A stretch of 64,000 nt of DNA, taken from NCBI RefSeq assembly GCF_009914755.1, contig NC_060940.1, one strand, 5' to 3'. Position 1 is the stretch's first letter. Each line of letters starts with the position of its first letter. Under the pieces are notes generated by a model. The model was not told the origin of the DNA. It made no database searches and was given only the letters and a program-made list of their open reading frames with translations. The stretch comes from the human T2T-CHM13v2.0 reference genome, Homo sapiens. This document shows, piece by piece, positions 1 to 55,657 of the stretch. The position numbers and the translations under genes were made by a program.

Positions 1-2
1 TT

Positions 3-2340
<2,338 letters not shown>

Positions 2341-2399
2341 TATGATGTTATTTTGCTCGTTAGTTGATGCAGTTTTTTCCTAGCACTGATGGTCTTTAT

Positions 2400-3418
2400 A
2401 ATTTGGCATGTTTTTGCAGTCGCTGGTACTGGTTGTTCCCTTCCATGTTTAGTGCTTCCTTCAGGAGCTCTTGTAAGGCAGGCCTGGTGGTGACAAAATC
2501 TCTCAGCATTTGCTTGTCAATAAAGGATTTTATTTCTCCTTCACTTATGAAGCTTAGTTTGGCTAGATATTAAATTCTTGGTTGAAAATTCTTTTCTTTA
2601 AGAATGTTGAATATTGGCCCCCACTCTCTTCTGGCTTATAGAGAGAGTTTCTGCGGAGAGTTTTGCTATTAGTCTGATGGGCTTCCCTTTGTGGGCAACC
2701 TGACCTTTGTTTCTGGCTGCCCTTAACATTCTTTCCTTCATTTCAACCTTGGTGAATCTGATAATTATGTGTCTTGGGGTTGCTCTTCTCAAGGAGTATC
2801 TTTTGGTGTTCTCTGTATTTCCTGAATTTGAATGTTGGCCTGCCTTGCTAGGTTGGGGAAGTTCTCCTGGATAACATCCTGAAGAGTGTTTTCCAACTTG
2901 GTGCCATTCTCCCCATCACTTTCAGATACACCAATCAAACGTAGATTTGCTCTTTTCACATAGTCCCATATTTCTTGGAGGCTTTGTTTGTTTCTTTTTA
3001 CTCTTTTTTCTGTAAAGTTCTCTTCTTGCTTCATTTCATTCGATACTCAATCACTGATACCCTTTCTTCCACTTGAACGAATTCAGCTACTGAAGCTTGT
3101 GCATGTGTCACGTAGTTCTCGTGCCATGGTTTTCAGCTCCATCAGGTCATTTAAGGTCTCTACACTGTTTATTCTAGTTAGCCATTCATCTAATCTTTTT
3201 TCAAGGTTTTTAGCTTCCTTGCGATGGGTTCGAATGTCCTCCTTTAGCTCGGAGAAGTTTGTTATTACCAAGTTTTTGAAGCCTACTTCTGTCATCTCGT
3301 CAAAGTCATTCTCCGTCCAGCTTTGTTCCGTTGCTGGCGAGGAGCTACAGTCCTTTGGAGGAGAAGAGTCACTCTGATTTTTAGAATTTTCAGCTTTTCT
3401 GCTCTGGTTTCTCCCCAT
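2400..3418 (-). pseudogene. L1 ORF1 (p40), disrupted
   Basis: MGRNQSRKAENSKNQS... 3418-3083 ends prematurely; further pieces in other frames (3034-2789 LQEIWDYVKR; 2792-2598 RATPRHIIIRFTKVEMKE). Confidence 0.93.
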
Positions 3419-4465
3419 CTTTGTGGTTTTATCTACCTTTGGTCTTTGATGATGGTGACATACAGATGGGGTTTTGGTGTGGATGTCCTTTTTGTTGATG
3501 TTGATGCTATTCCTTTCTGTTTGTTAGTTTTCCTTCTAACAGTTAGGACCCTCAGCTGCAGGTCTGTTGGAGTTTGCTGGAGGTCCTCTCCAGACCCTGT
3601 TTGCCTGCGTGTCACCAGCGGAGGCTGCAGAACAGCAAATATTGCAGAACAGCAAATATTGCTGCCTGATCCTTCCTCTGGAAGCTTCATCTCAGAGGGG
3701 CACCCTGCTATATGAGGTGTCTGTAGGCCCCTACTGGGAGATGTCTCCCAGTTAGGCTACTGAGGAGGTCAGAGACCCACTTGAGGAGGCAGTCTGTCCA
3801 TTTTTAGAGCTCAAACTCCATGCTGGGAGAACCACTGCTCTCTTCAGAGCTGTCAGACAGGGACATTTAAGTCTGCAGAAGTTTCTACTGCCTTTTGTTC
3901 AGCTAAGCCTTGCCCCCAGAGGTGGAGTCTACAGAGGCAGGCAGGCCTCGAGCTGTGGTGGGCTCCACCCAGTTCAAACTTCCCAGCCGCTTTGTTTACC
4001 TGGTCAAGCCTCAGCAATGGCAGACACCCCTCCTGCAGCTTGGCTGCCACCTCACAGTTTGATCTCGGACTGCTGTGCTAGCAGTGAGCAATGCTCCGTG
4101 GGCATGGGACCTACTGAGCCATGTGTGGGATATAATCTCCTGGTGTGCCGTTTGCTAAGACTGTTGGAAAAGCACAGTGTTATGGCGGGAGTGTCCCGAT
4201 ATTCCAGGTACCGTCTGTCCATCTGTCACGGCTTCCCTTGGCTAGGAAAGGGAAATCCCCCAACCCCTTGCGCTTCCCAGGTGACGTGATGCCCTGCCCT
4301 GCTTTGGCTCACACTCCGTGAGCTGCACCCACTGTCCAACCAGTCCCAGTGAGATAAACCAAGTACCTCAGTTGGAAATTCAGAAATCACCCGTCTTCCG
4401 CATTGATCATGCTGGGAGCTGTAGACCGGAGCTGTTCCTATTTGGCCATCTTGGAATGATCCACC
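3419..4465. promoter_or_regulatory. L1 5'UTR: internal sense promoter (firing leftward) and antisense promoter (firing rightward)
   Basis: Intact YY1 motif CAAGATGGCC on the minus strand at 4444-4453. L1PA 5'UTRs are known to be bidirectional. The ZNF93-associated 129-bp segment is present at ~3575-3705. Confidence 0.7.
4017..4289 (+). CDS. L1 antisense ORF0 homologue, open, 90 aa
   Basis: MADTPPAAWLPPHSLISDCCASSEQCSVGMGPTEPCVGYNLLVCR... matches primate L1 ORF0 (MAGAPPPASLPPCSLISDCCAS...). Strong Kozak gcaATGG. C-terminus is longer than the canonical ~71 aa. Translation not shown. Confidence 0.7.
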   Translation: MADTPPAAWLPPHSLISDCCASSEQCSVGMGPTEPCVGYNLLVCRLLRLLEKHSVMAGVSRYSRYRLSICHGFPWLGKGNPPTPCASQVT

Positions 4466-4618
4466 TGCCACATTTTCTTTATCCAGTCTATCCTTGATGG
4501 ACATTTGCATTGGTTCCAAGTCTTCACTATTGTGAACAGTGCCTCAATAAACATACGTGTGCATGTGTCTTTATAGTAGAAGGATTTATAATCCTTTGGC
4601 TATATACCCAGTAATGGA
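4466..4618 (-). mobile_element. Older L1PA ORF2 3' fragment, host of the nested L1
   Basis: gccacattttctttatccagtctatc...catacgtgtgcatgtgtctttatag...tatatacccagtaatgg is the reverse complement of the L1PA ORF2 3' end. Confidence 0.88.
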
Positions 4619-4724
4619 TCATTATTTCTGTTTTTTCAATGGCAATTGTCTCCTGATCTGTTGGCTTCAGTATACTTGAGTAATGATAAAATCTACATTT
4701 TAAAACACATGAGATGTTTTTAAT

Positions 4725-11753: not shown

Positions 11754-11820
11754 TTTTTTTTTTTTTTTTTTTTTTTTGAGACAGAGTCTTGCTATGTTGC
11801 TGAGGCTGGAGTACAGTGGC
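11754..11820 (-). mobile_element. Truncated Alu (tail plus ~45 bp)
   Basis: T-run then gagacagagtcttgctatgttgctgaggctggagtacagtggc, after which Alu similarity ends abruptly. Confidence 0.85.
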
Positions 11821-12200
11821 CTTTCTACTACAATGAGGAATTCTGCCTTGGGACTTGAGAGAGGTAGCAGTCCTAGGGTGTGGGTTAGGGGCATTCACTG
11901 AAATACCATGTAGCAGCGTAACCTGTGGCTATTGAAATGTGGCTGTAGGAATATTGCTCATGACTTGACTTCTGCTCTTGAATATTCATAGCTGGGCAGC
12001 AGAGAGCGATGTGAGGACTATACTTATGGCATGATACCATTTTTATTGCAAATATATAGGTATATGTGGAAGTTGATTAAAAATTTATGTGTGATCATTT
12101 TTACAGTGCCTATCTCTAGGTAGTAGGATAATTTTTATTTTTCCCTTTGTCTTTTATTGTAGTTTCTCAGTTATTTCCAATAAGCACTGCATTAATTTTA

Positions 12201-12854
<654 letters not shown>

Positions 12855-13339
12855 AAGGAGAGGAGATTTCTGTCAGGCACAATTTCTGTCAGGCACAGTA
12901 GCAGGAACCAGATTGAATTCTCTTGCCATTGAAATCTGGACAAAAATCTGTGAATCGGCTGTCCTAAGACATTAGACAAGCAACAGCACAGGACCGTGAT
13001 CCTGAGAGAAGGAACATGAGAGGAGGGGACAGGGAGATGCCAGGCAGAGATAGCTACATCACTGCATGGAGGAGATGGGTTGGAGTTGAGAGAGGCTGAG
13101 GCAGCAGAAAGTTGTGGAATCAAGTTCTTAAGAGCAGAGGGTTACACGGGGACCTTCTTGGGTGTTTGGGGGATTCCAAGGCAGGCATGAGCTCAATGGC
13201 TCCTAAGCTCACCCCAGGCTGGGTGGTGGTTGGATTCCCACTAGCCAGAGTCCTCAGTGATCAGTCACTGCACTAGCTGGCCATGCCTACTGGCAGGCTA
13301 AACTGTCCCTAGAATAAAGGCAGAGCTTAAGAGAGCCTG

Positions 13340-13632
13340 AGAAAGATCACATTAAATCACAAGTAACAACACTTTTAAAAGAAAGACAGCAAAACCTAGA
13401 CACCCAACAAAGTAAAATTCACAATCTCCGGTATCTAGTCCAGAGTACCAGGAAGCAGGAGATTGTGACCTATGATCAGAAAATCAGTAAATAGGAAGGG
13501 ACCCTGTCTGGAATTAACTGACCAGGACATTGAAATCTATTAAAATTACATTCAGGAATTTAAAGGAAAAAAGGAACATAGCAAGGAGAGAAATAGAAGA
13601 CATAAAAAAGAACCGTATGGAACTCCTAGACT
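13340..13632 (+). mobile_element. Old L1M 5'/ORF1 fragment
   Basis: caacaaagtaaaattcacaat...caggaagcaggag...aaatagaagacataaaaaagaacc...ggaactcctaga pattern. Confidence 0.55.
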
Positions 13633-14564
13633 CGAAGAGCGAGGAGAGTTGCTGCCAGGCTTGCCTTCCATGTGTTTCGGGTACGTGCATTTGGTAAGGT
13701 TAGCGGTCTGCTTCATCCAATGGGGAATCAAAACCCAAGTTAAATGACTTGCCAGGACCTTAGTGAGCAAGAAGCTGCTGTTATATAACCTGACGACTGC
13801 CAGATATGTTGGCCTGCGTCATTAGGATACCAGAATCTTGAAAGGGTAAATTTAATGAGCTGAAATTTCATAGCTGGAAATGTAGACTCAGAACATTTGC
13901 ACAGTAGTAGACGGTGGTGTAACATTGTGTGAAGCCGAGTGTTTTGCTGGCTGCGCTGGTGTGCAGGAGCTTCCTCGGAGCCCTTGTGGTTGGAAGGTGC
14001 ACTCTGGAGCACACCCATTCTTAGCTTGTCTACCCTGTGGCCCCAGTGGAGCGTTTTGGAGCTGCTGGGAGGAGCTGTCCAGGGACAGACTGTCATGGTG
14101 GCAGTGGGCTGGAAACTGTTGTCTTTGGGGAAACGGTTAGAAATTGAGATTTCACAAGGTTTGATAATGGTTAGATGCCTGGAGAAGCAGCACATAAGTG
14201 AAGAATTAGGCTGGTTTTGTAGGTGCTAAGAGGGTCAGTGGAGGAACAGCAGCTCCGCGGAGGTGGGCTTCAGCCCAGCTGGGATTTTGTCATTTTCTTC
14301 CTGGGGTGCACAAGGCTTGCTCGAGGACCTGTGGTGGTGAGTGCTCTGTAACTGCTCAGGCGGACAGGAAACCGCCGTGGAGCACGCAGCACTGCCTGGC
14401 GGTGGTTGCTTTGGGACATGACCCATCACTGGAGGTGCTCAGGTGGAGTCAGGGTCTTTGGCTGGAGCCAAGCTCTCCACATGCAGCATGCAGGTGGGCA
14501 TGTTGAATCTCCTTTGAATCTCATGAATTTGAGATTCTGATTTAGTGTAGCTAGGCAATTTCTA

Positions 14565-14918
<354 letters not shown>

Positions 14919-14962
14919 TTAAAAAATGTATTCAGTGGAATCTATGTACTATGGCAATTTAA

Positions 14963-15826
<864 letters not shown>

Positions 15827-16433
15827 GACTACATTTTTATGCTTAAAAGCTTTTTAAAATTAGTCATTATAATTCTCTGCAACAAAACTACGTGTATACA
15901 ATGAAAATTAAAGTTTTTCTGTGCTCTTAATATTCTAAGAGTTTAAGAAAATTATGATTGAGACATCATTACAGTGAAAATTAATACACAGTACATCAAA
16001 GCAAATGTATCTCATTTTGATTAAACACAGCAAGTAAAATTTGTTGGAAATGTATCTTTAAGTGCGTGGATGAGACTTTTGCTCTATTAGTTTAATTACC
16101 CATGGACAAATATTGCCAGCCTGAAACAGCTTTTAATGTCCACTTTAAGAACTTCATTCATTTAAATAAGTTGGGACTAAAAGGGGTTTTGTCATAGCAG
16201 CATCACGCCACTCTCAGGCCCTTCTGCATTCCATGTCGGAAACCTCAGTTCCTAAGACTCACTCGTAGTGATCTCTGCAGAAGAGTGGAGATGCAGTGAG
16301 CCGAGGAAAAATGAAGCATTTCCTCTTCTCTGCTGTGGGAGTCGAGAGTGAGGGACGGGGGTGCACACATGCTGCACAAGGCAATGCCTAAGAAACTTCT
16401 CGTTCACCCCGTTCACACCTGTTGCCCCCACAG

Positions 16434-16570
16434 AGCCGATGATGAGCACCCCACCTCCTGCCAGAGAGCTCCTGCAGCCACAGCCGCAGCCGCAGGCCCT
16501 GCACTACGCGCTGGCCAACGTGCAGCAGGTGCAGATCCACCAGATCGGAGAAGACGGACAGGTGCAAGTA
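16434..16570 (+). pseudogene. BANP: BANP-derived exon A (137 nt, phase 1 to 0)
   Basis: ccccacag|AGCCGATG...CAAGTA|gtacgt. Confidence 0.92.
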
Positions 16571-18122
16571 GTACGTACCCTCTCCACCTCGCACCTTGGG
16601 AAAGGGGGCTGCGGGGTGGGCCACGGCAGGGCCCTGGCGGCTTCCACCAGTTCCGCTGTGTTTCGGGAGCACAGTGATAGCTTGGGAGGAGGCACAAGGT
16701 TCCCATTTAAAGTAGAGGTCATCATGGCCATGAGCTCTTAACATTTCACAGGTGGGGGCGGCTGCTGCAGAGCCTAGGGATTGAAGCACATGGTGGGGTG
16801 GGGCGTTCAGTCAGCTCACCTCAGTCCTGCCAGCAGGCAGGCGGGCAGTCAGCTCCAAGGGTCAGGCTGTGCAGTGGTCCCTGCCCCAGCTCGTGCTCCT
16901 GGGAAGCATCGGAAATATTTCTCAGCTCAGAAGTGCAGGCGTCCTCTTACTGAGGGAAAGAGTAATTTCCTTCTAGGATCAGTGGCAAAAGCTTGAGGTC
17001 ATTGTTCCCATGCAGCGTTTCCCTTGGAGTTACTCAGCACACCCAGGTTGGGCGGGCACTGTCCCAGCAGCAAGTCAATGTCCTGCCTTGCCCATGCGGA
17101 GTTCTCTGTTGGGGTTTTGTGACCCAAGCTGTGGTCAGTCTGATGCGCCTAGGGGCTCGCTCCCGGGTGAAGTCCCTCTACAAACACCTCCTGGATTCTG
17201 TGGCACGAGAGTAGGGGGCGGCTGAGAAGAAGACTTTTCTGGAAGCTTTGCTGAGTGACTAGAAATTTTACATGCACCACTAGACATCGCCTATGTTTTT
17301 AGTGGCACCAGCCCCCTTGGGCCCTCTGAAGACAGGTCATCGTGTGCCTCCGTGTTACCAGGGCTTTCTCCTGGAAACAAGGTCCTCCACTGTTGAGAGT
17401 GGGTCGTGGCTCTCATCTCAGTGTGGCTTCAGCGTGCTGTCTGGAAGAGGGAAGGCTTCCAGAAAATTCTGGGGCTTTTAGAGGGGGCATTACCCTTCCT
17501 CTTCCAAAGGAGATGAGACAGTTATGAATAGTGAATCTTATTTAATAAGCTTATTAATTTATTTGACATTCACAATGGCAGTTCCTCTCATCTTGTTAGT
17601 AAGAAGTTCTTTGAAAGCGTTCCAGAGTAGATAACTTTGTCATAAGGCTTACATAGAACATTCTACAGGAGTTTAAGATCCATTTCGACTAAGAGAGAAT
17701 TTCAAATAAGATAAGTATTCATTTCATTTACAGGTTTATAGGAAATATTTGTCTGCCCATATGTATAAACAGTGGATTCTTTGATTTTTTTTGAATCACA
17801 TTTGTTAGTGTTTCCTCAAACTGTTTAAATAGTCATATGAGTGTTTCTTTGATTTGAAAAATGTTGCCTGCCCTGTTGTGAGTGTAGGCACGCAAACAGC
17901 TCCCCTGCTTCAGCCATACACTGCTTGCGTAGCCTCCCAGCATCCCCAGAGAGCTGAACGTATCATTTGAAAAGAGGTGTCATTGTGATTTTCTATTTCC
18001 CCTCTTTTCTGTGTGTCATGCACATTTTAAAATTTACTTGTTTAGTAACATTTAAAGATGTATATATCTTTCCTGGGACCTATTGCTCCTTTGTGAAGTA
18101 CTGGAACATGTTCTGTGTTACA

Positions 18123-18462
18123 CAGTACCCCCCCTTACCCATGCTTCCACTTTCCTAGGTTTTAATTACCCATAGTCAACTGTGATCTGAAAATATTAGA
18201 TGAGAAACTCCAGAAATAAACAATTTGTAAGTTTCAGATTGCATACTCTTCTGGGTAGTAGCATGATGAAGTCTGATCGTCCTGCTGTGTCCAGCCTGGG
18301 ACGTGAGTCATTCCTTTGTCCAGCATGTCCAAGCTGTGTGGCACGTATGGGCAGGAAAAAGCATAGCATATACGGGGTTCCGCACCATCCACGGTTTCTG
18401 ACGTCCACGTGGTGGGGGGAGGGGGCGCTTCTTGAAACCCTCATGGATGAGGGGGACTACTG
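18123..18462 (+). mobile_element. MER44A-like (TcMar-Tigger) DNA transposon
   Basis: Terminal inverted repeats cagtaccccccctta... and ...atgagggggactactg; internal ccagaaataaacaatt and gggacgtgagtcattcctttgtccag. Confidence 0.85.
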
Positions 18463-18646
18463 TGAACCAAAAGCTTAATTTAAAGAGGTGACCACAGACT
18501 ATATTGCACTATTCAGGATTTAGTTATCTTTTTGAATTGTAAACAGATAATCAAGAACAAACATTCCGGAAGATGTTTCTTGTTTCCTTTGCTTTTTATT
18601 TTCTTCTGATGCTTCTTGGTGTCTTTTCTTGCTGCGGATCCCACAG

Positions 18647-18709
18647 GGACACCTCCACATCGCCAAGGTGCCGCAGGGGGAGCAAGTCCAGATCACGCAG
18701 GACAGCGAG
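18647..18709 (+). pseudogene. BANP: BANP-derived exon B (63 nt, phase 0 to 0)
   Basis: atcccacag|GGACACCTC...GACAGCGAG|gtgagt encodes GHLHIAKVPQGEQVQITQDSE. Confidence 0.92.
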
Positions 18710-21211
18710 GTGAGTCATCTCTCGCTGCAGCCCTGTCCCTGCAGGCACTGTGCCCGCATGCTCCTGACCTTCATCGGTGTCACAGTGCGAGGGCAGCAGG
18801 GAGCCCCCAGGATGGGGAACATGGGCGAGGGCTGCAGGACTCCGCTTCCAGGGTGCACATAGCAGGCCTGCAGTCTCTGTGGCCTCACTGCCTCCCCCTC
18901 CTGTCCGTTGGTCTCCACAGCTTCTGGTCTGTCTTGGCAAAGATCTCCTGGGTAGATGTTTCTGCTTCTGGCTCGAAGTGCCCTCTGAGTACCCTTCTCT
19001 CCCTGTCTGGCCCTGCCCTTCCTGCCAGGGGAGGGCCCCAGTGTGGCCGAGATGGGGTCTGCCCCTGCACAGGTGACCTGACATACCCCCTCACCTGCCA
19101 TGTGGCCCCAGCTTCCTGGTGGCCTCTACGGGATTAGTGCCGATTTCATAGGATGGTGGGGAATCCCACAAGGTGATGCTGCCAGTCCTGAGAGCTGGTC
19201 ATAGCCCTGACGCACCTGCCATGTCTGTGATTGTCTCAGTTTCTGGAGCTCTACCCAGCCACGCGCTCAGAAGTGCGGGCTCAGCTGCTGTTGGGGTCTG
19301 GAATGTGAAGGCGGGAGTGACAGTCTGAGTTCTTGGAAAGCCGAGGCCGGCCGGTTGCGATGCTCCGTGTTTGCGTGCCAGAGCAGGACTGTCTTCCGGG
19401 TGGCTGGTGACCATCCTTCGACTCTGGGCTGTTTCCTGCAGCACAGGCAGCAGCAGGCACAGGGCAGTAAGCAGCGCACACGTGCTGTACTGAGTGACCG
19501 TGGTGCGCTCTGGGGGATGAGGAACATGGCTGTTTCTAGGTCGTGCCAATGGCACCAGCTTTGTGTTTGGTGTATAGTAGTGTATCGCTACGAAGATCTC
19601 AGGCTTCCCCACACACACCAGCAGCAGAGACTAGGAAGCCCGGGTGCTGAGGTCAAGGGGACTCATGGAGATGTTGGCGTGCGAGGGCTCCCGGGAGCTC
19701 ATGCTGGGTGCAGGTGCTGTGGGGGAGCAGAGGAGAGAGAAGCCCTGCCATCGGGGACTCACAGCGGGCGCAGAGCCTCCTGCCCAAGTGCCCATGAGCA
19801 AGACTGTGGACACATGCATGCCGTGGCACGTGGAGCACCAGGGACTTGGGCGTGTCTGCTGGCAGTGGCTTTAATTTGGACACCAGCAGTTCCCAGTGGG
19901 TTATTCTGAGAGGGGAGCACATGCATAAGGGTTCCGGGGCGGAATGAGGAAGAGGTGAAAGGGGAGGAATGAATTCATATGGGGGCCATGAGCGACTGGG
20001 AATGAGTGGGCTCATCCACACAGCGACATGACCAGGTCACTAAGAAACATATGGTCAGATGGATGGATGGAAGGAAGCACCAGGGCGGGGAGCAGGTAGG
20101 GGACGGTCCCAGGAGGCCAGAGTGTCCAGGAAGGGGCAGGGCCTGGTTCTGTGTCTGTGGGTGGGCCAGGGACCATCTCCCTGGAGATGTCGGGAGATGC
20201 GCCTGTCAGCTCAGCAAGGTCAGGTGCAGGAGTTGGGGGCCTGAGTGGCTGCGAGGTGCAGGATCCCAGCAGCACCTTCCAGTGCAGGAGCTGCCTTTGA
20301 GGGGCAGGGGAAGGTTGGCTTCTCAAGGCACAGACAGGTGGGGGCTGGGAGGCTAAGCTCACTGCCAGAGACCTCAGCCAGAGTTCTTGAATACCTGGAA
20401 GCCTATGAAGTTCGTCGGAATGCTTAATTTCCTTAGAGTCATTGAAAATGCAGGAAAATTGAAACGGCAGCAAAAGAAAAAAATCAACACACATTTGCTT
20501 TTTATAGTTTATGCTAAAAAATCTTGACTACTGGAATTTCAATTTTTTATTATTAGTTTTATCCTTCAGTTTTCAAAACTGAATCCATCTTGTATAGGTG
20601 ATTGTCTTTCATTTTCATTAGGAATTGAATGCAGTAAGTTAGAAATTGCTAATAATACTAACGATGGCTTTGTGATAAGTGACAGTATGCAGTCTCCTCA
20701 CCATAAATTCATACCATGTTCATTTAAAATTATTTTGTTAAAACAGGATATCTGCAAATAAACATTTAGCAGGGTCTAACAGACATAAAACAGTTCCTTT
20801 TTACAACAAATGAAAATGAATTTCTAACTGGAGAGCTCTTAGTAGCTCTGTGGTTGAGTGAGTTGGTTCCTTGCGTGCAGCCCGTGACCTGGCGTGGTGA
20901 TGCCGCACAGCTCAGCAAGGCGTCCCCCTTTGGGGAAGCTGGGTGACATGCACATAGCACCTCTCTCTGCTACTTTCTGTACTTTTTGTGAGTCAGATTC
21001 TTTCAAAATAAAAAATGAAGTAAAAATGACATTTTCATTTGGGGTCAGGGTGGGGGAATGGGTACAGTGCTTTTTGAGTTGTTTGTTCATCTTTAAAATA
21101 ATAAATAGTACCTAGAAATCTAAATATTTTGTTTTGGGGCTTTTGTTGCTACTGGAGGTTGAATTTTTGCAGAACTAGTGTTTTTCTTGTTATTCTCAAG
21201 TGGCCTGTGAT

Positions 21212-49409: not shown

Positions 49410-49480
49410 TACTTTTTATGAAGACTGGTCTTTTGTGATGGATGAAGAGAGGTCCAGTATGCTTCCTACCATGGCAGCAG
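49410..49480 (+). pseudogene. SNX29P2: SNX29-derived exon (71 nt)
   Basis: tctgcag|TACTTTTTATGAAGACTGG...GCAGCAG|gtaagc. Confidence 0.93.

Positions 49481-54821: not shown

Positions 54822-55657
<836 letters not shown>

What the first reader, a model, noticed from the sequence alone, without database searches (positions are those of the whole stretch)
4017..4289. ORF0 stays open in an otherwise dead L1, with donors in all three phases
Seen: ORF1 and ORF2 carry several stops and frameshifts, but ORF0 is open for 90 codons with a strong Kozak context. Donor-like sites are CAT|GTGTGG after 4122 (phase 1, weakened), CAG|GTACCG after 4207 (phase 2) and CAG|GTGACG after 4280 (phase 0, inside the ORF only because it is extended). 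Splicing 4207->49410 gives an in-frame ORF0-SNX29 fusion (…RYS-S-TFYEDW…) that skips the frameshifted exon. Splicing 4280->18647 or 4122->16434 gives in-frame ORF0-BANP fusions. Known: ORF0 can form fusion proteins with proximal exons. Caveat: with three phases available, some in-frame match is guaranteed, and a 270-nt GC-rich ORF can survive by chance.
Basis: partly seen in the sequence, partly recalled or inferred. Interest (0 to 1): 0.7.

Follow-up and report, generated by a model that had tools for sequence, protein, structure and literature searches.

The report
Leftover ORF0 in a decayed L1
The 90-codon open frame is the antisense ORF0 of an old, dead LINE-1 element; about a third to a half of similar-age copies keep such a frame, so it is an ordinary relic and its proposed fusions to neighbouring pseudogene exons are arithmetic without evidence.

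Summary
The ORF is real: + strand 4017-4289, 90 codons, GCAATGG start context. It lies antisense in the 5'UTR of a minus-strand full-length L1. Its first 64 codons align without gaps to the 71-aa ORF0 of young L1 copies (38-39 of 64 identical).

Staying open is not unusual. Of 53 distinct related copies, 25 keep the ATG plus at least 70 codons, and 15 keep at least 90. The first codons of ORF1 in the same copies survive at a similar rate. The element's own damage density predicts P=0.35 for 90 codons. ORF2 still has a 466-codon open stretch.

ORF0 is also not undamaged. An 8-nt insertion at 4211-4218 shifts the family's tail frame. Private changes are 5 nonsynonymous to 2 synonymous.

The three donor-like sites and their phases are as stated, but two are weakened. 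The junction arithmetic is right for 4207->49410 and 4280->18647. 4122->16434 gives a TAG at the junction.

I found no transcript evidence.

Verdict: neutral relic of a known kind, low interest.

The parts
4017..4289 (+). Relic L1 ORF0, 90 codons plus stop. Codons 1-64 are colinear with the young-L1 ORF0. The tail (codons ~66-90) is in a shifted frame.
   Evidence: ORF and Kozak context. (38-39 of 64 identical to the 71-aa ORF0 of L077, L079 and L081). (tail shifted).
4211..4218 (+). 8-nt insertion (tandem-like; placement ambiguous by a few bases) that shifts the family's ORF0 tail frame.
   Evidence: absent from 8 of 8 relatives aligned; local sequence.
4120..4128 (+). Donor-like site D1, CAT|GTGTGG, phase 1, with T at -1.
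   Evidence: Young copies have CAG|GTGTGG in 8 of 12. Only 19 of 53 same-age relatives have GT here.
4205..4213 (+). Donor-like site D2, CAG|GTACCG, phase 2. This is the family state.
   Evidence: CAG|GTA in 43 of 53 relatives. Young copies have CAG|GTGCGT in 10 of 12.
4278..4286 (+). Donor-like site D3, CAG|GTGACG, phase 0. It has lost the G at +5 that the family carries.
   Evidence: GTGAG in 43 of 53 relatives and in 12 of 12 young copies, where it lies after the ORF0 stop.
3419..4455 (-). L1 5'UTR with a decayed CpG island. It holds the region homologous to the antisense promoter.
   Evidence: 82-90% identity to 29 related copies over 3419-4460; 17 CpG, observed/expected 0.24; the 5' end reads ...ccaagatggccaaataggaacagctccgg on the minus strand.
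2396..3418 (-). ORF1 relic: 340 codons in one frame with 10 premature stops.
1..2340 (-). ORF2 relic, which runs off the window start. Open stretches of 263 and 466 codons are separated by at least 2 frameshifts.
11818..18900 (+). Start of the BANP-derived segmental duplication. The L1 lies 7.4 kb outside it.
   Evidence: window 11818-16199 is 95-96% identical to C16:29.60 Mb and C16:94.10 Mb; 16200-18900 is 98% and 96% identical.
16434..16561 (+). BANP-derived exon (128 nt), acceptor ...ccccacag|AG, donor CAG|GTGCAA. It is not in the RefSeq transcript.
18647..18709 (+). BANP-derived exon behind the acceptor ...cccacag|GG. RefSeq exon 1 starts 5 nt upstream, at 18642.
   Evidence: plus the annotation supplied with the task.
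49410..49480 (+). SNX29P1 exon 4, the acceptor of the proposed ORF0-SNX29 fusion.

Best explanation
A full-length L1 of an older primate subfamily sits on the minus strand from the window start to about 4455. My estimate is L1PA4-7. It rests on pairwise divergence and recalled subfamily ages and was not typed against reference consensus sequences.

The 90-codon frame at 4017-4289 is the element's antisense ORF0, inherited at insertion and decaying neutrally since. It is still open because it is short.
- Only 27 of 594 possible single-base changes in its first 66 codons make a stop.
- The one frameshifting hit it took, an 8-nt insertion after codon 65, happened to land in a frame that stays open for 24 more codons.

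The donor-like sites are family features of the L1 antisense strand, two of them weakened here. That they cover all three phases is chance, and it guarantees an in-frame match to any downstream exon.

Shown: the anatomy, the homology, the frequency among relatives and the junction arithmetic. Inferred: neutrality and lack of use.

If the antisense promoter fires at all, for instance in hypomethylated cells, the most likely product is a short unspliced or locally spliced non-coding or ORF0-only RNA. A BANP or SNX29 fusion is not the likely product.
For: (1) Homology and position.
- The ORF is antisense in the 5'UTR. Its ATG is about 440-450 nt from the L1 5' end. PMC10619931 puts the ORF0 start codon at L1 nt 451 (passages).
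- Young copies give a 70-71 aa ORF0 in 9 of 12. I picked these by the published ORF0 reverse-primer site, which has 856 exact matches in the genome.
- 38-39 of 64 residues are identical to the query, without gaps.

(2) Frequency among relatives.
- Sample 1 was chosen on the ORF itself: 17 of 29 keep ATG plus at least 70 codons, and 10 of 29 keep at least 90.
- Sample 2 was chosen on the neighbouring 3419-3900: 11 of 29 and 8 of 29.
- In the union of 53 distinct copies: 25 and 15.

(3) Matched control, the first codons of ORF1 in the same copies.
- 11 of 28 (at least 70 codons) and 9 of 28 (at least 90) in sample 1.
- 7 of 29 and 6 of 29 in sample 2.
- Fisher p = 0.19, 0.39 and 0.76.

(4) Decay within the element.
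- 13 disruptions in 1121 codons give P=0.35 for 90 clean codons.
- ORF2 keeps 466- and 263-codon open stretches.

(5) No constraint is visible.
- Private substitutions in the first 198 nt are 5 nonsynonymous and 2 synonymous, against a neutral share of 0.75.
- The 8-nt frameshifting insertion is present.
- CpG observed/expected is 0.43 in ORF0 and 0.24 over the 5'UTR, against 0.79-0.95 in young copies.

(6) The kind is known. Papers citing Denli 2015 report about 3000-3200 ORF0 loci, in L1HS and L1PA2-8 (PMC4908685; PMC5554003).

(7) No Pfam family matches the 90-aa or the 177-aa frame.
Against: - The relatives were the best-scoring 29+29 of 5217 and 4012 first-look candidates, not a random sample. 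Sample 1 is biased towards copies without large gaps in ORF0.
- ORF0 survival is nominally higher than the ORF1 control in both samples (17 vs 11, and 11 vs 7). A weak excess cannot be excluded with these numbers.
- The ATG has a strong context and would be the first AUG for any + strand start between 3821 and 4016.
- The frame is open from stop to stop for 177 codons (3756-4289), longer than needed.
- No expression, ribosome-profiling, methylation or ape-orthologue data could be consulted, so non-use is inferred and not shown.
Confidence: 0.88

Rival explanations
1. The L1 antisense promoter serves as a distant alternative promoter of SNX29P1. It would give ORF0-BANP or ORF0-SNX29 fusion proteins: 4280->18647, or 4207->49410 with exons 1-3 skipped.
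For: - The L1 antisense strand points towards SNX29P1.
- The frames match for 4207->49410, giving 295 aa that end at a TAA just past the annotated transcript end.
- The frames also match for 4280->18647, adding 41 aa.
- Citing papers report ORF0-exon fusions at 57 of about 3200 loci (PMC4908685).
- L1PA2-8 show antisense promoter activity in the same 5'UTR region (same paper).
Against: - Each acceptor necessarily matches one of three phases.
- 4122->16434 gives TAG at the junction.
- D3 has lost its +5 G and D1 its -1 G.
- The splice must span 12-45 kb. On the way it passes 15 + strand AATAAA/ATTAAA hexamers (first at 4546) and 6 strong acceptor-like sites.
- 4207->49410 must skip three good acceptors that the annotated transcript uses.
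- With ordinary exon order, D2 gives out-of-frame tails that stop in exon 4, and D3 stops in exon 3. These stops lie upstream of further junctions, so I infer the transcripts would be targets of nonsense-mediated decay.
- RefSeq exon 1 begins 5 intronic bases before the 18647 acceptor. That cDNA was therefore not spliced from upstream (plus the supplied annotation).
- The paralogue at C16:29.60 Mb shares the duplicated stretch that holds this exon, and no copy of this L1 closer than 87% exists anywhere in the genome. So the paralogue has the same exon without this L1 upstream.
- None of SNX29P1, RUNDC2B, SNX29P2, SNX29, ABCA15P or CRYM occurs in the 11 supplementary files held for Criscione 2016. 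SNX29P1, SNX29P2 and SNX29 do not occur in the 1 file held for Garza 2023.
Confidence: 0.03
2. The ORF0 of this copy is translated as a stand-alone 90-aa peptide whenever the antisense promoter is derepressed. It would be one of thousands of ORF0 loci, with no locus-specific selected role.
For: - Strong Kozak context, and no upstream ATG between 3821 and 4016.
- Citing papers describe ORF0 transcription as enriched in pluripotent cells, and antisense promoter activity in L1PA2-8 (PMC5554003; PMC4908685).
- A polyadenylation hexamer lies 257 nt after the stop.
Against: - The CpG island has decayed (observed/expected 0.24), which I read as long germline methylation.
- No promoter or enhancer element is annotated over 1-4460 in the table supplied with the task.
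- The peptide differs from the young ORF0 at 25-26 of 64 aligned residues and has an unrelated tail.
- No expression data were available.
Confidence: 0.08
3. This ORF0 copy has been kept open by purifying selection because the host uses it.
For: The ORF0 open fraction is nominally above the ORF1 control in both samples. The stop-to-stop frame is long, at 177 codons.
Against: - The differences are not significant.
- Private changes are 5 nonsynonymous to 2 synonymous.
- There is an 8-nt frameshifting insertion in the tail.
- The donors are weakened.
- P=0.35 by chance alone.
Confidence: 0.01

Closest known systems
L1 ORF0 (Denli et al. 2015, Cell 163:583). The paper is not held; I know it here only through passages of citing papers.
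   Same: - Antisense ORF in the L1 5'UTR, downstream of the antisense promoter.
- Strong Kozak ATG at the homologous position.
- 38-39 of 64 residues identical to the 71-aa ORF0 read from young copies of this genome.
- Donor-like sites at the two positions inside the young ORF0. That these are the two published sites is my inference.
   Different: - 90 codons, not 70-71. The homology stops at codon 64.
- The tail comes from the older family's longer form (110 codons in several relatives), further shifted by an 8-nt insertion.
- D1 has T at -1.
- The host element is dead and CpG-depleted.
L1 antisense-promoter chimeric transcripts (Criscione et al. 2016, PMC4908685: 988 transcripts; ORF0-exon fusions at 57 of about 3200 loci, as cited there).
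   Same: The geometry is that of such loci: the antisense strand of a full-length L1PA 5'UTR points at downstream exons on the same strand.
   Different: No transcript is known. The gene names of this neighbourhood are absent from that paper's 11 held supplementary files. The nearest usable acceptor is 12 kb away, and the gene is a transcribed pseudogene whose annotated transcript starts at 18642, inside the duplicated segment.
LINC01876, an L1PA2 antisense-promoter lncRNA (Garza et al. 2023, PMC10619931, passages).
   Same: An L1 antisense promoter with its ORF0 at the head of a host transcript. That paper tracks ORF0 integrity across apes.
   Different: There the transcript is documented by RNA-seq, long reads and H3K4me3, and the element is young (L1PA2). 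Here the element is older and nothing is documented.
SNX29P1 as a BANP+SNX29 chimeric pseudogene (PMC13122177, passages).
   Same: This explains the BANP-frame exons at 16434, 18647 and 21379 and the SNX29-frame exons from 45923 on. The duplicated segment starts at window 11818.
   Different: The passages I read name only BANP and SNX29 as parents and do not mention an L1. The L1 lies outside the duplicated segment.

Membership tests
L1 ORF0 locus | Lies antisense within the 5'UTR of a primate L1, downstream of the antisense promoter region. | tested here: met
   The ORF1 ATG is at 3418 on the minus strand and the L1 5' end is at about 4455. The ORF runs 4017-4289 on the + strand.
L1 ORF0 locus | ATG with a strong Kozak context at the homologous position (L1 nt ~451 per PMC10619931). 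| tested here: met
   GCAATGG, the same heptamer as 12 of 12 young copies. 47 of 53 relatives keep the ATG.
L1 ORF0 locus | Peptide homologous to the ORF0 of young L1. | tested here: met
   38-39 of 64 identical, without gaps, against L077, L079 and L081.
L1 ORF0 locus | About 70-71 codons ending at the canonical stop. | tested here: not met
   90 codons. The tail after codon 64 is not homologous to the young form, and an 8-nt insertion shifts the older family's tail.
L1 ORF0 locus | Two splice donor sites inside the ORF. | tested here: inconclusive
   GT dinucleotides are present at both homologous positions. D1 is CAT|GT (G at -1 lost) and D2 is CAG|GTACCG. The published positions could not be read because Denli 2015 is not held. 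Site strength was judged only against the textbook consensus.
L1 ORF0 locus | Host element belongs to L1HS or L1PA2-8. | tested here: inconclusive
   88-91% pairwise identity to the nearest copies over 2520-4460 and 80-84% to young copies over 3900-4460 suggest a mid-age L1PA. No reference subfamily sequences were available for typing.
L1 ORF0 locus | Transcribed from the antisense promoter and translated. | not testable with these tools
   No RNA-seq, CAGE, Ribo-seq or proteomics data were accessible.
ORF0-exon fusion locus | An observed transcript that joins an ORF0 donor to a downstream host exon in frame. | tested here: inconclusive
   In-frame junctions exist on paper and one carries a junction stop. 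No report was found: term searches of the supplements of two papers, and 10 papers mention SNX29P1, of which I read passages of one. Denli's own fusion table could not be seen.

The most novel reading that the evidence does not exclude
The old L1 was already in place when the BANP/SNX29 duplicated segment landed 7.4 kb downstream. In some permissive tissue its antisense promoter might now supply an upstream first exon to SNX29P1. That would give an ape-specific ORF0-SNX29 chimeric protein (63 ORF0 residues plus 232 more: a junction serine and the SNX29-frame residues of exons 4-6) or an ORF0-BANP peptide.
Probability: 0.02. Interest if true: 0.45.

Novelty: already known. Interest (0 to 1): 0.1.

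Why it matters
It matters little as it stands. ORF0 loci of this kind are reported in the thousands, and this copy behaves as a neutral relic.

The case is useful as calibration. In copies of this age, an open ORF0 with donor-like sites occurs in roughly 3-5 of 10, so it is no signal on its own. Donors in three phases make in-frame fusions a certainty on paper.

A junction-supported ORF0-SNX29P1 transcript would be a modest example of a retrotransposon promoter capturing a recently duplicated chimeric pseudogene.

Tried and rejected
- Denli 2015 and Speek 2001 could not be read because they are not held. The published donor positions, the locus list and the fusion table are therefore unseen.
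- One literature search failed on a too-short term. A search for ORF0 + Ribo-seq + LINE-1 + fusion found 0 papers.
- PMC8554170 held none of the terms I looked for.
- My first nucleotide alignment used wrongly guessed locus coordinates and is uninformative. I replaced it with script alignments.
- Pfam gave nothing for the 90-aa or the 177-aa frame.
- I did not score splice sites with a trained model because none was available. Strength is judged against the textbook MAG|GTRAGT consensus and against the family state.
- I did not type the L1 subfamily because I had no reference sequences. The L1PA4-7 estimate rests on pairwise divergence and recalled subfamily ages.
- I considered and rejected selection on ORF0: not significant against the ORF1 control, and 5 nonsynonymous to 2 synonymous private changes.
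- I considered the 177-codon stop-to-stop frame as a larger gene and rejected it. It has no in-frame ATG upstream of 4017 and no family match.

Full report
**What is there.** The + strand carries an ATG at 4017 in the context GCAATGG and a TGA at 4287-4289, which makes 90 codons. On the minus strand lie L1 ORF1 (2396-3418) and ORF2 (from 2340 down past the window start). The minus strand near 4455 reads like an L1 5' end. The ORF therefore lies antisense in the L1 5'UTR, with its ATG about 440-450 nt from the L1 5' end. PMC10619931 puts the ORF0 start codon at L1 nt 451 (passages).

ORF1 is one 340-codon frame with 10 premature stops. The ORF2 part in the window falls into three frames, so it has at least 2 frameshifts, and it has a stop at 105.

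**Is it ORF0?** I could not read Denli 2015, which is not held. I took the ORF0 reverse primer printed in PMC7746726 and searched the window's own genome for its site.
- There are 856 exact matches.
- In 12 fetched copies, the frame from the homologous ATG is 70-71 codons in 9 of 12. Reviews give the same length (PMC4859970; PMC4908685).
- The query's first 64 residues align to these without gaps, with 38-39 identical. Beyond codon 64 the tails are unrelated.
- Pfam finds nothing in the 90-aa or the 177-aa frame.

**Is the open frame more than chance?** I took two samples of related copies from the same genome. Both are the best-scoring copies, not random draws, and sample 1 favours copies without large gaps in ORF0.

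| Sample | How chosen | Self-hit | ORF0: ATG + ≥70 codons | ORF0: ATG + ≥90 codons | ORF1 control: ≥70 | ORF1 control: ≥90 |
|---|---|---|---|---|---|---|
| 1 (L002-L030) | with the ORF itself; 5217 first-look candidates, 40 scored, 30 loci kept | L001 | 17 of 29 | 10 of 29 | 11 of 28 | 9 of 28 |
| 2 (L042-L070) | with the neighbouring 3419-3900, so not selected on ORF0; 4012 candidates, 40 scored, 30 loci kept | L041 | 11 of 29 | 8 of 29 | 7 of 29 | 6 of 29 |
| Union | 53 distinct copies | – | 25 of 53 | 15 of 53 | – | – |

- The ATG is kept in 27 of 29 copies of sample 1 and in 47 of 53 of the union.
- The control reads ORF1 from its homologous ATG in the same copies. One locus in sample 1 did not align at that ATG.
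- ORF0 is nominally ahead of the control, but not significantly: Fisher p = 0.19, 0.39 and 0.76.
- The element's own damage is 13 disruptions in 1121 codons. That predicts P=0.35 for 90 clean codons.
- ORF2 of the same 'dead' element still has 466- and 263-codon open stretches.
- Only 27 of 594 possible single-base changes in the first 66 codons create a stop.

**Signs of constraint.** There are none.
- All 8 relatives aligned lack 8 nt that the query carries at 4211-4218, directly after the GTA of the 4207 site.
- Many relatives read a 110-codon ORF0 ending ...MR*. The insertion shifts the query out of that tail frame into one that ends at 4287.
- So the 90 codons are 65 inherited codons plus a frameshifted tail that happens to be open.
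- Seven substitutions are private to the query in the first 198 nt. Five are nonsynonymous and two synonymous, against a neutral share of 0.75. The number is small.
- CpG observed/expected is 0.43 in the ORF and 0.24 over the 5'UTR. It is 0.79-0.95 in the ORF0 of 12 young copies. I read this as long methylation-driven decay.

**Donor-like sites.** All three are at the stated places and phases.

| Site | Query | Young copies | Same-age relatives | Comment |
|---|---|---|---|---|
| 4122 | CAT\|GTGTGG | CAG\|GTGTGG in 8 of 12 | GT in only 19 of 53; many have GCG or GCA | The GT looks like a product of CpG decay |
| 4207 | CAG\|GTACCG | CAG\|GTGCGT in 10 of 12 | CAG\|GTA in 43 of 53 | Query has the family state |
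| 4280 | CAG\|GTGACG | GTGAG in 12 of 12, after the ORF0 stop | GTGAG in 43 of 53 | Query has lost the +5 G |

Against the textbook MAG|GTRAGT consensus (recalled), all three are weaker than the five annotated SNX29P1 donors shown.

**Fusions.** SNX29P1 is described as a chimeric pseudogene with 105 bp from BANP and 878 bp from SNX29 (PMC13122177, passages).
- Window 11818-18900 is 95-98% identical to two other chr16 places, C16:29.60 Mb and C16:94.10 Mb. I take these to be the SNX29P2 and BANP loci, an identification that no call tested.
- The L1 has no copy closer than 87% anywhere. It therefore lies outside the duplication, 7.4 kb upstream of its edge.
- I tested every donor against every annotated acceptor and against the unannotated BANP-derived exon 16434-16561.
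- 4207->49410 gives ...RYS/STFYEDW... in the SNX29 frame, 295 residues, ending at a TAA just after the annotated transcript end.
- 4280->18647 reads the BANP frame for 41 residues and stops in exon 3.
- 4122->16434 has the right phase, but the junction codon is T+AG = TAG. The same G-to-T change that weakens this donor kills this fusion.

**With ordinary exon order,** 4207->18647 gives a 104-residue tail in neither the BANP nor the SNX29 frame.
- All these stops lie upstream of further exon junctions. I infer that such RNAs would be targets of nonsense-mediated decay.
- The favoured fusion must skip three acceptors with good polypyrimidine tracts.
- It must also span 45 kb. Between 4290 and 16433 the + strand has 15 AATAAA/ATTAAA hexamers, the first at 4546, and 6 strong acceptor-like sites.
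- RefSeq exon 1 starts at 18642, five intronic bases before the 18647 acceptor. That cDNA was therefore not spliced from upstream.

**Literature.**
- Papers citing Denli 2015 report ORF0 in L1HS and L1PA2-8, about 3000-3200 loci, two donor sites, and observed exon fusions at 57 loci (PMC4908685; PMC5554003; PMC4859970; PMC13517631; PMC10760644). I read passages only.
- The gene names of this neighbourhood do not occur in the 11 held supplementary files of Criscione 2016. SNX29 names do not occur in the one held file of Garza 2023.
- Ten papers mention SNX29P1. None of the 9 listed has L1 in its title, and I read passages of one.
- Denli's own tables could bear on this locus and were not seen.

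**Verdict.** This is an ordinary, neutrally decaying ORF0 relic in an older L1PA element. The fusion reading is not excluded, but it has no support and several structural obstacles. I put it at about 2-3%.

Noticed in passing
window 3756-4289 (+): The frame that holds ORF0 is open from stop to stop for 177 codons. The 87 upstream codons hold no in-frame ATG. On the + strand the last ATG before 4017 is at 3820.
   Followed up: partly
window 18642-18647: RefSeq exon 1 of SNX29P1 starts 5 bases upstream of a well-formed acceptor (...cccacag|GG) inherited from an internal BANP exon. The annotated 5' end therefore includes intronic bases. This points to a start inside the duplicated segment or to an incomplete cDNA.
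   Followed up: partly
window 16434-16561: A further BANP-frame exon (128 nt, acceptor ccccacag|AG, donor CAG|GTGCAA) lies upstream of the annotated SNX29P1 start and is not part of NR_045011.1. It is also present in the copy at C16:29.60 Mb (locus L032).
   Followed up: partly
window ~11818: The upstream edge of the BANP-derived duplicated segment. From here on the window is 95-98% identical to C16:29.60 Mb and C16:94.10 Mb. Upstream of it only dispersed repeats match.
   Followed up: partly
window 55197-55201: The last annotated SNX29P1 exon ends at what looks like an unused donor (GAA|GTAAGT). In the SNX29 frame the next codon after the annotated end is TAA.
   Followed up: no
window 105-1505 (-): ORF2 of the dead L1 keeps a 466-codon stretch without a stop through the reverse-transcriptase region. 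ORF1 has 10 premature stops in 340 codons but no frameshift. Damage is very unevenly spread.
   Followed up: partly
window 4461-4640 (+): Directly beyond the L1 5' end lies a fragment that reads like the 3' part of an L1 ORF2 on the + strand. It holds an AATAAA at 4546. From about 4700 on there are minus-strand L1-like ORF fragments, so the element sits in a nest of older L1 pieces.
   Followed up: no
loci L006, L018, L063, L064: In some related copies the ORF0 frame runs on for 140 or more codons, to or past the L1 5' end. ORF0 length is very variable among old copies.
   Followed up: no
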